Source: Scyliorhinus canicula
Lineage: Eukaryota
Assembly (NCBI RefSeq): GCF_902713615.1
Contig: NC_052174.1
Span: forward strand, 10,782,514-10,846,513
DNA: 64,000 bases
Direction of reading: 5' to 3'
Positions 39,001 through 45,000 of the stretch are shown here, piece by piece. Positions within the stretch are counted from its first letter, which is position 1. Every line of letters starts with the position of its first letter. A program made the position numbers.

Positions 39001-42000
39001 CACCACTAATTCCACATATTACCACCTTTTAATAATAATAATAATTATTGTCAAGTAGGCTTACATTAACACTGCAATGAAGTTACTGTGAAAATCCTCT
39101 AGTCGCCACATTCCGCTGCCTGTTCGGGTACGCTGAGGGAGAATTCAGAATGACCAAATCACCTAACAGCACATCTTTCGCGACTTGTGGGAGGAAACCG
39201 GAGCACCCGGAGGAAACCCACGTAGACACGGGGAGAATGTGCAGACTTCGCACAGACAGTGACCCAAGCCGGGAATCGAACCTGGGACCCTGGAGCTGTG
39301 AAGCGGCAGTGTTAACCACTGTGCTACCGTGCCGCCCAATACTCCTTCCGGACTACATATCTCTTTATCGCTCACCATTAAAGTTTGACTTGCTCCTGTA
39401 TCCTTTAAGCTCTTAATCTCCTTACACTCCATATTGTAGACATGAGTAAACCTTACTCCCACAAATGATTTGGTACCTGCTTTTCCACCAGCCTCTGAAT
39501 AGGTTGTACACTGTGTTGCACCTCTTCCACTGGAACAATGGTTTCTCTTCCCACTTTAATAAACCCGCTAGCTTTTCCTGTTTTGATTAATCTGTCTTTC
39601 CAGTAATTTACTGACACCACCAACATTGCAACTTCATGTGTCCTACTTTATTACAATGAAAATGTTTAGGTTTTCTCGTCTCTCTTCCACTATCATAGGT
39701 TTCATGTTTAACTGAGGCAAACATTCCTTACTTTGCTTTGTGAACTCATTCAACATCATCTGCCATTTCTGCTGCCTGTCTAGCAGTTTTAACCCTTTGC
39801 TCTTCCATTTGAGTTATCACGGGATATGGTATTTTAAAACAAACTTTATTATTAACACAGTATTAAAATATCTTCAACATCAAACAAGAAAATAACTCAG
39901 ATATAATCAATACACTGACACAATAACCCTTAACTGCTATCTTTATTCACACTCAAACAACAAAATCATTTCAGCTCCCAATCCACTTTTAGTCACAGTT
40001 AGCAGACCCAGGGATACTTGTTGTACAGTGATACTCTTTGAGACTGCTTTAAGAGATAAACCTTAACCCTGTTAGAACAATGCAGGATCTGTAGCTGAAG
40101 TCTTCAGAAACTGTCTTCATGGTTTGACTTTCAACTCCCAACTGAAATTAACGGCCTCTTTTCAAAATGCCTGGTTCTCGAGCTCCTCCCATTAGACAAC
40201 ACATTTGCAAGCTTAAGTACAATGTATCTAATTAACCCCACAGGAAACTATCTTAACCCAAATAAAAGTGCATTAGCTCAAGCTTTTACGATGCTTTAAT
40301 TGCATTTCTGGCTCCTAAAAAGTCCAGCTGCCTTGCAAACCTGGATTTATTAATCTACGGCAGGGCCAGGGCAGGTACAAGAAGCTACTGCAGCTGTCAT
40401 ACACATTGTAACACATTCTAACTCAGGCTTTTAACCCTTTCTGTACCAAATATATATAACACGATAGATCTGGAATCCCAACAATCATCACACCTCAAAT
40501 TCTAAAGCAAAACCAAAAATGTCGGCAGATCAATTGCCAAATCTATACTCAGGGCACCTACACTTCAGTCACTCATTATTATTCCATTTGTGTTTCCAGT
40601 GCATCAGCTCAGTGTAAATCCTCCCTGTGTTCCTCTCTATTTCCAGATCGGTCTGGGATCTGCTCTCATTGTGGATGATGGACACACAGCCGTAATTGAA
40701 CTGCTTAAAGTAGCTGCTTCAGAGTGGGGCAATGGAGTTGCCAGCTTGCTTCACCAAAGGTCTATCAAGCTGATAAGAGCGATGTCCTCAGAGGTTCAGA
40801 AGCAAAGTTTTATCACGGCGCTCAAGTTCTACAAAGGATGTTGTGTATTAGGCAAACAGGTACAATTTGCGTGCAGTTATACTCACACACCAGCTATGTT
40901 TCATTGTGTCACACTCCTGTCTCTGAGCTGTAAGGCTGGTGTTCCTACCAGAGATGGAGCATAAAAACCAAAGCTGCCACTCGCAGCACAGTTCGGAGGG
41001 AGTGCTGCACTGTCAGTGATGTTGACTTTTGGATGAAGTGCACTGATTTCCCAAGTGTCTGATCAGTTGAGTGTAAAGGTTCTCATGATGCCTATTTCAC
41101 AGGATCTCATAATAATAGAGTGCAGGAGAGGACCATCGACCCATTGAGTCCGCACTGCGCCTGAAAAACACCTGACCTGCCTATCTGATCCCATTTGTCA
41201 GCACTTAGTCCATAACCTTGAATATTATGACGTGCCAAGTACTCATCCAGGTAGTGCGTTCCAGACCCTCACCATCCTCTGGCTTAAAACGATTTTCCTC
41301 CCAATCCTCCTAAACCTCCTGTCCCTCACCTTGAACTTGTGCCCCCCTCATAACCGACCCTTCACCTCAGGGGAACAGCTGCTCCCTATCCACCCTGTCC
41401 GTGCCCCTTATAATCTTGTCCACCTCGATCAGGTCACCCCTCAGTCTCTGCTCCAAGGAAAATAATCCAAGCCCATCCAACCTCTCTTCATAACCTAAAT
41501 GTTCCATCCCAGGCAACTGGTGAATCTCCTCTGCGCCCCCTCCAGTGCAATCACATCCTTCCTATAGTGTGGTGACCAGAATTGCACACAAAACTCCAGC
41601 TGTGGCCTCACCAAAGTTCTATACAACTCCAACATGACCTCCCTGCTTTTGTAACCCATGCCTTGACTAATAAAGACAAGTGTCCCATGTGCATTTTTGA
41701 CCACCCCATTAACCTGCCCTTCCGCCTTCAGAGATCCATGGACAAACACTCCAAGGTCCCTTTGTTCCTTGGAACTTCCCAGTGTCAGGCCATTCATTGA
41801 ATACCCACTTGTCGTGTTACCTCTTCCAAAGTGGATCACCTCACACTTTCCAGGGTTAAATTCCATCTGTCACTTTTGTAACCATCCCATCTATATCCTC
41901 CTGTAAGACAAATGGGGAATTTCACTATTGTCCCTGGAAAAATGTACCCTGAATAAGAAAAATTATCCACTCGTTATCACGGTGTTCTTTGTGGGATCTT

Positions 42001-45000
42001 GCTGTGCACACACTGGCTTCAAATTATTATATCAATCTGTGTCTCTCTGTTTTTTACTATGTAATTGAACATAATGTATTCTCCTGGACAAGATTAACAA
42101 ACCCCAGTGCTGATCAACCTCTGCAACGCTGGGAAATTGACCCGAATGATGTTTTTCAGAAACAAACAACCAGAAATATAAATTTCACAGAGAGTCAGTG
42201 AGAGATTCTGTCTGAATCTTTCTCACTGAACAGTTTTAATGAGTGAAGGACAATGACCCATATCTTCCAGGTTTCCCGGCGTCGCATGTAGGGGATATCC
42301 CTATGATGTCCTGGAAATCCCTCCCGGATGTTCCAACGTGAGGGTTTACCCGAAAACCTCCCGGAAGTGCTAACTTCATCTGGACAATTACGCTGGGCTG
42401 GGAATTATCGGACAGACAATGATTTAGGTCACTAACTTCACATGGTCCTGCTAGTTTCACCCTGATAGTTACTCTGAAAGAGTTAGAGGAAAGAAGTCAC
42501 TCCTAACTGCAGAGTAACTATGTAAAAAACCCAAATGCAGAAACCTATCCCTCTTGGACGTAGCCCCCTCCTTCACTCCCTCCCGGACTGACGTCTGCCT
42601 CCCTTCCCCGCTGACGTCCAATTTGGATTGATTGTCACATGTTCTGAGGTATAGTGAAAAGTATTGTTCTGCGTACAGTCCAGACAGATCGTCCCACACA
42701 TGAAAAACATAGCACATACGGTAAATACAGTGTAAATACATAGAAATAGACATCGTGTGAAGCATATGGAATGTAGTGCTACTCAGTAGAGAAGACGCGT
42801 GAAGAGATCAGTTCAGTCCATAAGAGTGTCATTTAGGACATCCAAACTTCCCATCCCGGAGAAATCCATCTCCCTCCCTCCTAGACAGATCATCCCCCCA
42901 AATCCTTCCCCCCCTTCCTGGTTGACCCCCCCACACTTGCCCCCTGCCGTTCAAACCCCTGCCCCCCTCTCAATTGGGTACGAATACCTGCCCCCTCCCC
43001 CCTCGACATTCCCTAATCTTATAATTTACCCTCCCTCTTTATTGCAGCTGATCCTGTAAAAAGGAAGGGTTACTGACCTCTCTGCGCCAGTGGTACTGCC
43101 GTGCCAATCGGTGCCATGGTTCCCAAGATCCGAACTTTACGGACGCTTTTACGAACGGTCAGACCAGGTGTGTTTGACGTTCCTAAAAACGGTCGTAAAG
43201 GGCTTGGACTTCGGCCCATCGGCCAGCTGAGAATCGCTGCTCGCCGTAAAAAAACGGCGGGCAGCGATTCGTGTCGGGAGGCGGGCGTGGGGGGGAGAAT
43301 AGCGGGAGGGCGTCAGACTAGCGTGGCCGTACAAATTTACGACCCCCGCTATTCTCCGCACCGTCGTGAGTGCGGAGAATCGCTCCCCTCATTTTTTAAA
43401 TTACCCGCGATTCTCTGCCCGATTGCAATTCAGGTTTCCGGGAGTTACGATGCTCAGAATCCAGATCATGGTTGAGGTCTTAAAAATCTTGAGGAGTGTG
43501 CACAAAGCCAAAAGCGAGAAAGTGTTCCTGCTCGTGGAAGAACCAAGAACGAAAGAATACGGATTAGAGGTAATTTGTGAAAGGAGCAAAACGACATGTG
43601 AAACGCAGAGGGATTGGTTAGGGTCTGCCTGAGAGTATGGGAGAGGCAGATACAATCGAGCATTCACACGGAATTTAGACTGTTATTTCAAAAGAAAGTG
43701 TTCAGCATCACGGGGAGAAGGTGCGACAATGGCACTGGGTAATTGGCTCATGGGGGGGGGGGGGAGAGCCGGCACAGACAGGATGGGCCCAACGGCCTCC
43801 TTTTGCGCTGTAACAAATCCCTGATTCCATGATGTTAATTAGTGCCCTCTCACTGCGGCCATTGCCTGGAATCTGTGCTTGATGATCATGGGCAAATGTG
43901 GACTTGACCAAGTAGGAGGTCCGTCTCCCATGGATACCGCAGCGGTGGATGACGGGTGTGTGGGAGGACAGAGGGTAGAAGCAGAGAAATAGAATCCTCA
44001 ATGTAGTAAAATGTGATGCAAAATGTCCTTCAGCCTGCAGTGTGACTGAACTTTGCATTGATAAAGTGAGCTAACATCAAAAAGACAATATCAGATGATA
44101 AAATGTAATATAAAGAATAAACGTTTCACAATATTAGTAGGTTATACCAAATACAAAGCAATGTAGGGTAGGAGAAAGGGATTCACAGGATATGGGGCAA
44201 AGAAATAGGCCATTCAGCCCAACCAGCCTCTGCTGTAATCTTCCCAATTCTTGACAATAGTGAGGTTGAAGGGCAGCACGTTGGTGCAGTGGGTTAGAAC
44301 TGCTGCCTCACGGCACTGAGGACCCAGGTTCAATCCCAGCCCTGGATCACTCTCTGTGTGGAGTTTGCACATTCGCCCCGTGTCTGCGTGGGTCTGACCC
44401 CCATAAACCCAAAGTGTGCAGGGTAGCTGGACGTTACATTGACCCTTAATTGGAAAACTTAACATAAAAGAGTGAGGTTTCAGATGGGAGGTAAATGAGC
44501 AATGGGAGGGTCTCACAGAGAGATTGTTCAGGTACACACAAGGTACATTCCCACAATGGGGGTGGGAAATGTTAATGTTAAAATTTCACAATCCCAGTGC
44601 AGATCGGCAATCGTATCGACTACACTCTAATGATCGACGGCCTCACATTTCACCCTCCGACTGTCTGATTCCTGCGCCCGATCTACTCTTTATTCCAACC
44701 TTGTTTGTCTTTCACAAGCCCCAGTGCACCTTGTTTCACCCACCATTTCAATAAAATAGATTTGCATTGCTATAGCGCCTTTAAGCTCAGCAGCCAATCT
44801 ATGCATGGCAAGATTCCACAGTCAGCATTGGGATAATGACCAGGTAATATGTTTCTGGGGATGTTGTTGAGGGATCAGGATGTTTGTGACTCAGACTAGA
44901 GTGTGACCAATCGAACCACAGCTGACTGGCACTGTGTCTGAATGCTGCACCCTGCTTCTCCAACCCAACAAATTTGTTCAATCCCTCCCCACGCTTATCC

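What the first reader, a model, noticed from the sequence alone, without database searches (positions are those of the whole stretch)
40860..44467. Copy A has no terminal exon before the next unit: truncated duplicate, or variable cassettes spliced to a shared exon?
Seen: between exon 4 of A and the start of unit B I find only TEs and short unique stretches, with no homolog of the ~600-nt terminal exon. Yet all four exons of A are open with canonical splice sites. Inference: a partial duplication not yet decayed, a GNAT-half isoform, or a UGT1A/protocadherin-like layout where promoter + N-terminal cassettes splice to a common downstream last exon.
Basis: partly seen in the sequence, partly recalled or inferred. 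Interest (0 to 1): 0.65.

Follow-up and report, generated by a model that had tools for sequence, protein, structure and literature searches.

The report
Truncated catshark histidine-acetyltransferase gene copy
One copy in a catshark cluster of histidine acetyltransferase genes has lost the last exon, which encodes half of the enzyme, and appears to end instead in a tiny makeshift exon; this is an ordinary partial gene duplicate, not a new gene layout.

Summary
Unit A has four open exons with AG/GT boundaries (28384-28412, 29953-30046, 36915-37076, 40647-40859). A profile of the ~187-aa terminal exon (Hisat_C) scores only noise in 40860-44467 (E=14) but finds two orphan copies upstream of A (E 8e-73; 1e-37). 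The interval has no assembly gap.

The window is Scyliorhinus canicula, in a tandem array of histidine N-acetyltransferase (HisAT/NAT16)-like genes. NCBI already models copy A as a 152-aa protein. Every residue maps to the window, and after exon 4 the model splices to a non-homologous mini-exon at 43048-43059 (LIL-stop) inside the interval. Copy B has a 344-aa model whose Hisat_C exon lies beyond the window. An A-type protein without Hisat_C also exists in S. torazame and shares derived changes with A, so the truncation predates that species split.

A's product would end inside strand beta6. It would lack the swapped strand beta13 and the histidine-stacking Trp, and it has Trp where a family-invariant acetyl-CoA-motif Arg should be. 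Most likely it is a partial duplicate with no HisAT activity.

The UGT1A-like reading is not supported: units have internal acceptors, five S. canicula paralogs each have their own terminal exon, and no A-type protein with Hisat_C was found. Transcripts could not be checked.

The parts
28384..28412 (+). Unit A canonical exon 1 (ATG, MGLSLSTCN + 2 nt of the next codon), GT donor
   Evidence: 10/10 aa identical to paralogs P0010/P0011
29761..29797 (+). Alternative first coding exon used by NCBI's model of A (MLTGVPFALSGG + 1 nt), gtaagt donor
   Evidence: the equivalent in B (47117-47152) has a stop
29953..30046 (+). Unit A canonical exon 2 (AMRSS...MTRQ), AG acceptor, GT donor
36915..37076 (+). 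Unit A exon 3 (54 codons; substrate Tyr pair DYIPSIY retained); NCBI's model uses a longer form starting at 36880
40647..40859 (+). Unit A exon 4 (71 codons; acetyl-CoA motif reads W-G-N-G-V-A); donor CAG|gtacaa, phase 0
   Evidence: (100% to P0001)
40860..40987 (+). Stub of intron 4 still alignable with B (63491-63625, 68%); A/B homology ends here
41100..41144 (+). Cryptic exon-like stretch at the start of a repeat; matches the tail (DLRIIECRRGP) of the S. torazame A-type model P0002
41242..41873 (-). LINE-type fragment (similar to 47760-48283 and 56689-57042, both on the minus strand)
   Evidence: the 47683-48684(-) ORF is RVT_1
43048..43059 (+). Coding part (CTG ATC CTG TAA = LIL*) of the non-homologous terminal exon in NCBI's model of A; acceptor AG at 43046-43047 after 17/20 pyrimidines
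   Evidence: (unique in window)
44116..44121 (+). AATAAA, the only one between the LIL stop and unit B; candidate poly(A) signal (inferred)
44268..44431 (-). SINE abutting the upstream edge of the A/B homology (44467 = 27822)
45247..45275 (+). Unit B canonical exon 1
47309..47402 (+). Unit B canonical exon 2
56285..56446 (+). Unit B exon 3
63278..63490 (+). Unit B exon 4 (100% to P0004, the 344-aa model with Hisat_C); B's terminal exon is not in the window
14630..15211 (-). Orphan terminal-exon (Hisat_C) copy T-, with a TE insertion and frame changes
19931..20645 (+). Orphan terminal-exon copy T+: intact acceptor, 4-bp deletion near 20097, TAA at 20296, SINE insertion about 20366-20520

Best explanation
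Copy A is a partial tandem duplicate of a HisAT/NAT16-like gene. It has a promoter region plus exons 1-4 but no Hisat_C terminal exon.

Shown: the exon anatomy, the absence of a homologous terminal exon, and the existence of a public 152-aa model.

Inferred: its transcripts end within the A-B spacer by splicing exon 4 to a cryptic exon at 43048 (LIL-stop), probably polyadenylated near the AATAAA at 44116.

Shown by mapping onto the fold: the product stops inside strand beta6. It lacks strand beta13, which in HisAT inserts into the N-terminal sheet, and the hairpin Trp that stacks on histidine. It also carries Trp in place of the family-invariant Arg of the acetyl-CoA motif.

Inferred: it cannot be a histidine acetyltransferase and is most likely a non-enzymatic remnant.

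The truncated A type predates the split of S. canicula and S. torazame. This is shown by shared derived residues and by both species' models lacking Hisat_C.
For:: A exon 4 is 100% identical to P0001, a 152-aa NCBI 'histidine N-acetyltransferase-like [Scyliorhinus canicula]'. Only 2 hits among 99 candidates, both short.

all 152 residues of P0001 map to 29761-29797, 36880-37076, 40647-40859 and 43048-43059, with GT/AG at every junction.

the terminal-exon profile gives E=14 in the interval against 8e-73 and 1e-37 for the controls; no N in the interval.

B is the 344-aa P0004 with Hisat_C, and its C-terminus is not in the window.

A and S. torazame P0002 share Q13H, R27W, Y47S and K51Q (exon 4) and Q20E (exon 3). 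P0002's tail maps to 41100-41135.

the motif Arg (R113 of P0004) is invariant in 21 of 21 aligned family members.

in the model of P0004 (pLDDT 84.5; TM 0.80-0.86 to 9EN3, 9EMP, 9EMD), the exon 4/5 boundary (157|158) lies in strand 152-165. The last strand (324-338) and the hairpin (239-243 and 251-256) are encoded by the terminal exon.

PMC12219266, section 9 and passages: beta6 and beta13 are swapped between domains; histidine stacks between Tyr74 and Trp246.

dN/dS for A vs B in exon 4 is 0.75, not distinguishable from 1 (p=0.38).
Against: The four retained exons have no stop or frameshift, in A and apparently also in the S. torazame A type. This is unexpected for a long-dead fragment.

Exon 3 shows purifying selection in the A-B comparison (dN/dS 0.38, p=0.035).

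A is not an outlier for divergence. It has 17/71 exon-4 differences to its nearest S. torazame partner, within the range 7-22/71 for the other five models. It changes 8/36 paralog-invariant exon-4 positions against 5/36 for B.

Whether the 43048 exon is used in real transcripts could not be checked; I saw only the protein record. The S. torazame model ends at a different cryptic site. The terminal exon downstream of B could not be seen.
Confidence: 0.6

Rival explanations
1. The GNAT-half protein is a working short paralog. The truncated A type has been kept by selection, for instance as an acetyl-CoA-independent binder or as a modulator of the full-length paralogs, and is not decaying.
For: Open exons with intact splice sites in A. 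The A type is present with shared derived residues in a second species. Exon 3 dN/dS is 0.38, p=0.035. The substrate Tyr pair is retained (against PMC12219266 section 9). NCBI models it as a protein.
Against: The product ends inside beta6 and lacks the swapped beta13, so the N-terminal sheet is incomplete. The invariant motif Arg is lost. Exon 4 is not distinguishable from neutral. The two species' models end at different cryptic sites, so no conserved C-terminus is evident.
Confidence: 0.2
2. UGT1A/protocadherin-like sharing: transcripts from A's promoter skip all of unit B and splice exon 4 to B's terminal exon. A and B would then be alternative N-terminal cassettes on one constant C-terminal domain.
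For: A's exon 4 ends in phase 0 with the same donor (CAG|gtacaa) as B's, and terminal exons start in phase 0, so the join would be in frame. A lacks its own homologous terminal exon. A's exons are open.
Against: B's exons 2, 3 and 4 have acceptors that would have to be skipped over more than 23 kb. Joining to B exon 2 would be out of frame, because exon 2 starts with the third base of a split codon. All 10 of 10 pairs of S. canicula full-length models have different terminal-exon peptides. No protein with an A-type exon 4 and Hisat_C was found (2 hits among 99 candidates, both short). The public model ends A at 43048. The motif Arg is lost in A.
Confidence: 0.07
3. Assembly artefact: A's terminal exon exists in the genome but was lost or misplaced in this assembly.
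For: The array is repetitive. Two orphan terminal-exon copies lie upstream without their exons 1-4. There is a gap elsewhere in the window.
Against: There is no N in 40860-44467. An independent S. torazame assembly gave an A-type model that also lacks Hisat_C, and its tail matches 41100-41135. Both orphan copies are damaged and sit upstream of A, not downstream.
Confidence: 0.05

Closest known systems
HisAT / NAT16 (histidine N-acetyltransferase; PDB 9EMD, 9EMO, 9EMP, 9EMT, 9EN3)
   Same: A's exons 3-4 are clear homologs of the N-terminal, acetyl-CoA-binding GNAT domain. B's full model aligns over the whole human enzyme (E 8e-38) and folds alike (TM 0.80-0.86). The substrate Tyr pair is kept in A.
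   Different: A has no second GNAT domain (Hisat_C). It ends inside beta6, lacks beta13 and the Trp246 equivalent, and has W-G-N-G-V-A where the family has R-G-K-G-x-A/G.
UGT1A and clustered protocadherin loci (variable first exons spliced to shared constant exons; layout recalled, not from a call)
   Same: Tandem N-terminal units precede a downstream C-terminal exon, and the upstream unit has no C-terminal exon of its own.
   Different: Here each unit has four exons with internal acceptors. The other family members each have their own terminal exon. No shared-exon product is known.
Truncated partial gene duplicates that are still transcribed, such as human SRGAP2C (recalled, not from a call)
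   Same: A 5' partial copy made by segmental duplication, with open retained exons and a novel short 3' end from flanking sequence.
   Different: No evidence here that the short product is made, is stable, or acts on the full-length paralogs.

Membership tests
HisAT/NAT16 double-GNAT acetyltransferases | Sequence homology of the N-terminal GNAT domain | tested here: met
   A exons 3 and 4 match paralogs at 69-77% and 46-56% aa identity. Pfam Acetyltransf_1 on exon 4 is only sub-threshold (17.9 bits against a cut-off of 20.7).
HisAT/NAT16 double-GNAT acetyltransferases | Acetyl-CoA motif Gln/Arg-x-x-Gly-x-Gly/Ala (PMC12219266, introduction passage) | tested here: not met
   A reads W-G-N-G-V-A. 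The first position is Arg in 21 of 21 aligned members. The Gly-x-Ala part is kept.
HisAT/NAT16 double-GNAT acetyltransferases | Second GNAT domain (Pfam Hisat_C, PF24066) with the beta7-beta8 hairpin Trp and swapped strand beta13 | tested here: not met
   No Hisat_C signal in unit A or in 40860-44467. P0001 ends after exon 4 plus LIL.
HisAT/NAT16 double-GNAT acetyltransferases | Substrate-binding Tyr74/Tyr79 equivalents in the alpha1-alpha2 loop | tested here: met
   A has DYIPSIYHSW, which aligns with human DYLPSRYHSW. Residue roles come from PMC12219266 section 9.
HisAT/NAT16 double-GNAT acetyltransferases | Acetylation of histidine | not testable with these tools
   Needs an enzyme assay.
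Variable-exon / shared-constant-exon clusters (UGT1A, clustered protocadherins) | Each variable unit is a single first exon with a donor but no acceptor (recalled definition) | tested here: not met
   Units A and B each have four coding exons, three of them with AG acceptors.
Variable-exon / shared-constant-exon clusters (UGT1A, clustered protocadherins) | Isoforms share an identical constant C-terminal part | tested here: not met
   Family level: 10 of 10 pairs among 5 S. canicula models differ in the terminal-exon peptide (80-94% identity). No A-type protein with Hisat_C was found. For the A+B pair alone it could not be tested without transcripts.
Variable-exon / shared-constant-exon clusters (UGT1A, clustered protocadherins) | Donor of the variable unit is phase-compatible with the constant exon | tested here: met
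   Exon 4 ends in phase 0 and terminal exons begin in phase 0. This is trivially true for paralogs.
Unprocessed (duplicated) pseudogene / partial duplicate | Lacks part of the parent gene | tested here: met
   The terminal exon is absent.
Unprocessed (duplicated) pseudogene / partial duplicate | Disabling lesions or neutral evolution in the retained exons | tested here: inconclusive
   No stops or frameshifts in the four exons. dN/dS is 0.75 (p=0.38) for exon 4 and 0.38 (p=0.035) for exon 3, and the comparison is pairwise with B, so it is not polarised.

The most novel reading that the evidence does not exclude
The half-gene is not debris. It has been kept open since before two catshark species split, either as a stand-alone N-terminal GNAT fragment that modulates the full-length HisAT paralogs, or as a promoter-plus-four-exon cassette occasionally spliced over unit B onto B's Hisat_C exon. 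The second case would be a multi-exon version of the shared-constant-exon layout, caught at its origin.
Probability: 0.12. Interest if true: 0.55.

Novelty: new member of a known kind. Interest (0 to 1): 0.2.

Why it matters
Mostly as a clarification. The apparent 'missing exon' is a real feature of a partial duplicate that public annotation already models as a short protein, not a new gene architecture. It also documents that catsharks carry a large, rearranging tandem array of HisAT-like genes: at least five full-length models on one 16.1-Mb contig, plus truncated and orphan pieces. Three library searches returned no paper describing the catshark array. If the short product proved functional, it would be a natural experiment on splitting a strand-swapped double-GNAT enzyme.

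Tried and rejected
(1) A hidden, decayed terminal exon in the spacer. Tested with tblastn, a profile HMM, Pfam and Rfam, with no signal.

(2) Homology between A's spacer and the 510 nt of B's intron 4 in the window. Only the first ~128 nt align, plus one inverted repeat piece. The duplication breakpoint could not be placed.

(3) SINE-mediated unequal crossing-over as the origin. The SINEs abutting the upstream homology edge (27822 and 44467) are in opposite orientation, so there is no support.

(4) A as a clear rate outlier. Rejected: A falls within the family range.

(5) Looking for full-length A-type relatives in other species. P0001 is its own 50% cluster, and the next representative is 47% identical.

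(6) Literature on a shark HisAT array. 0 papers for 'histidine N-acetyltransferase' + 'shark', 0 for 'NAT16' + 'Scyliorhinus', and no mention of sharks in PMC4496688.

(7) Folding the 152-aa product alone, and a complex prediction of the two halves. Not run, because a confident fold would not show stability.

(8) The genome-contig collection holds only bacteria and archaea, so it was not used. No sequence beyond the window could be examined.
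Full report
WHAT THE WINDOW IS

The window holds a tandem array of histidine N-acetyltransferase (HisAT/NAT16)-like genes. It is not human. A's exon 4 is 100% identical to an NCBI protein of Scyliorhinus canicula, the small-spotted catshark, and B's exon 4 is 100% identical to another on the same 16.1-Mb contig. One N run (46024-46162) lies in B's intron 1. I left it as it is.

I searched exon by exon and did not build or search a joined coding sequence of A or B; that joined step was left out. Where a full-length protein was needed I used the public records returned by the searches (P0001 for A, P0004 for B).

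ANATOMY

A self-comparison shows unit A (27822-40975) repeated as unit B (44467-63613) in seven colinear blocks of 71-87% identity. B is inflated by retroelement insertions: RVT_1 at 47683-48684(-), and RNase H and integrase domains at 51065-52469(+).

Paralog proteins mapped back to the window define a five-exon gene.
- Exon 1 is MGLSLSTCN plus a split codon.
- Exon 2 is AMRSS...TRQ.
- Exon 3 has 54 codons.
- Exon 4 has 71 codons.
- The terminal exon encodes about 187 aa, the Pfam Hisat_C domain.

A has exons 1-4 at 28384-28412, 29953-30046, 36915-37076 and 40647-40859. All are open with AG/GT boundaries and fitting phases. B has the same four exons at 45247-45275, 47309-47402, 56285-56446 and 63278-63490.

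THE OBSERVATION

No homolog of the terminal exon lies between A's exon 4 and unit B.
- tblastn with the window's own terminal-exon peptides gave only E=6.4 in the interval.
- tblastn with four full-length paralogs gave at best E=2.2 there.
- A profile from nine paralog terminal-exon peptides, run over all 3617 six-frame pieces of the window, scored E=14 and E=85 in the interval. It scored 8e-73 and 1e-37, 6e-30, 2e-12 and 9e-10 on two positive controls elsewhere.
- Pfam matched 0 of 13 ORFs in the interval, and Rfam gave nothing.
- The interval has no gap.

The description 'only TEs and short unique stretches' is loose. Only 890 of 3608 nt recur in the window. Smaller repeat traces lie at 42621-42838 and 43781-43802.

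WHAT IS IN THE INTERVAL

NCBI's model of A (P0001, 152 aa) ends ...VLGKQ|LIL*. All of it maps to the window: an alternative first exon 29761-29797, a long form of exon 3 from 36880, exon 4, and then CTGATCCTGTAA at 43048-43059. That last piece follows an AG preceded by 17/20 pyrimidines. Every junction is GT/AG.

So the public model gives A a terminal exon inside the interval, but a non-homologous one that adds three codons. The only AATAAA between that stop and unit B is at 44116. Its use as a poly(A) signal is my inference.

COPY B AND THE REST OF THE ARRAY

B's model (P0004, 344 aa) carries Hisat_C, and its C-terminal 187 aa do not map to B's part of the window. B's terminal exon therefore lies beyond position 64000.

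Five S. canicula models with Hisat_C sit on that contig. All 10 pairwise comparisons of their terminal-exon peptides differ (80-94% identity). Complete units each carry their own terminal exon.

Two orphan terminal-exon copies lie upstream of A, 5' ends facing each other.
- T- (15211-14630, minus strand) has a TE insertion, frame changes and an early stop.
- T+ (19931-20645, plus strand) has an intact acceptor, a 4-bp deletion, a TAA stop and a SINE insertion.

Neither has exons 1-4 beside it in the window. The array is clearly being rearranged and eroded.

AGE OF THE TRUNCATED COPY

S. torazame has a 177-aa protein (P0002) that is A-type. It is 76% identical to A in exon 4 against 58% to B. 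It shares A's derived residues at positions otherwise invariant among paralogs: Q13H, R27W, Y47S and K51Q in exon 4, and Q20E in exon 3.

P0002 also lacks Hisat_C, and its tail matches 41100-41135, just downstream of A's exon 4. The truncated A type therefore predates the split of the two species.

In the search with A's exon 4 among longer proteins, the only hits were these two short proteins, among 99 candidates. In the exhaustive search P0001 is its own 50% cluster, and the next relative is 47% identical.

WHAT THE PRODUCT WOULD BE

Human NAT16/HisAT structures exist, and B's model aligns over their whole length (E 8e-38). I read the abstract, part 1 of section 9 and passages of PMC12219266. 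It reports the following.
- The enzyme has a double-GNAT fold.
- Strands beta6 and beta13 are swapped between the domains.
- The substrate histidine stacks between Tyr74 and Trp246. Trp246 sits in a hairpin of the second domain.

A model of P0004 has mean pLDDT 84.5 and pTM 0.81. It matches 9EN3, 9EMP and 9EMD at TM 0.80-0.86. In it the exon 4/5 boundary (residues 157|158) falls inside the long strand 152-165. The hairpin (239-243 and 251-256, holding the aligned Trp) and the last strand (324-338) are encoded by the terminal exon.

A's product would therefore end mid-strand. It would lack the strand that completes its own sheet and the histidine-stacking Trp. A and P0002 also have Trp where the motif Arg is invariant in 21 of 21 aligned family members. 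A keeps the Tyr pair.

CONSTRAINT

- A vs B dN/dS is 0.38 in exon 3 (p=0.035 against neutrality).
- It is 0.75 in exon 4 (p=0.38).
- Exon 2 has 4 nonsynonymous and 0 synonymous differences.

These are pairwise values, so they do not say which copy changed. Against the other paralogs, A changes 8 of 36 invariant exon-4 positions and B changes 5 of 36. In exon 3 the figures are 5 of 39 and 3 of 39.

A's distance to its nearest S. torazame partner is 17/71 in exon 4, inside the family's range of 7-22/71. So A is not a clear outlier. Constraint on it is neither shown nor excluded.

VERDICT

Most likely (0.6): A is a partial tandem duplicate that lacks the Hisat_C exon. It ends in a cryptic exon in the spacer, and its product cannot acetylate histidine.

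A working short paralog is possible (0.2).

The UGT1A-like shared-exon reading is unlikely (0.07), for these reasons.
- The units are four-exon cassettes with internal acceptors.
- Splicing A's exon 4 to B's exon 2 would be out of frame.
- Family members have their own terminal exons.
- No A-type protein with Hisat_C turned up.

That reading cannot be excluded without transcripts or the sequence downstream of B. Misassembly is unlikely (0.05).

In the searched library I found no paper on this locus: 0 papers for 'histidine N-acetyltransferase' + 'shark' and 0 for 'NAT16' + 'Scyliorhinus'. The finding is real but ordinary.

Noticed in passing
window 14630-15211 (minus strand): Orphan copy of the Hisat_C terminal exon with an AG acceptor and a 198-codon frame that stays open. 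It holds a TE-derived insert, part of the original coding sequence is now in another frame, and it stops about 14 codons early. No exons 1-4 accompany it.
   Followed up: partly
window 19931-20645 (plus strand): Second orphan terminal-exon copy, facing the first across 4.7 kb. It has an intact acceptor but a 4-bp deletion near 20097, a TAA at 20296 and a SINE insertion at about 20366-20520. It could be the last exon of a unit whose other exons lie upstream of the window.
   Followed up: partly
window 51639-51734: The first 32 residues of NCBI's model of copy B come from inside a retrotransposon pol ORF (RNase H and integrase domains, 51558-52469). B's canonical exons 1 and 2 (45247-45275, 47309-47402) look intact and unused by that model. 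The annotated N-terminus of B may be an artefact or a TE-driven alternative start.
   Followed up: partly
window 36880-36914 and 56250-56284: An alternative acceptor 35 nt upstream of exon 3 adds LILIFLLCRSVK in A's public model. A S. torazame paralog model (P0009) has the same LIFLLCRSVK extension. B's equivalent stretch has two stops.
   Followed up: partly
window 28384-28412 and 45247-45275: Exon 1 encodes MGLSLSTC..., which resembles an N-myristoylation signal (Gly2, Ser6) followed by a Cys. The resemblance is recalled, not tested.
   Followed up: no
protein P0003 (S. torazame, 414 aa): This model contains the exon-4 peptide twice in tandem, differing by one inserted Gly. It is either an exon duplication or an assembly or model artefact.
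   Followed up: no
window 52610-52951: GC-rich tandem repeat with a period of about 67-68 bp (94-96% between copies). It gives long Pro/Ala/Gln-rich open frames on both strands, next to the retrotransposon in B's intron 2.
   Followed up: no
window about 43090-43400: A CpG-rich stretch with several short palindromes, seen by eye. It lies in what would be the 3' UTR of A's public model and has no copy elsewhere in the window.
   Followed up: no
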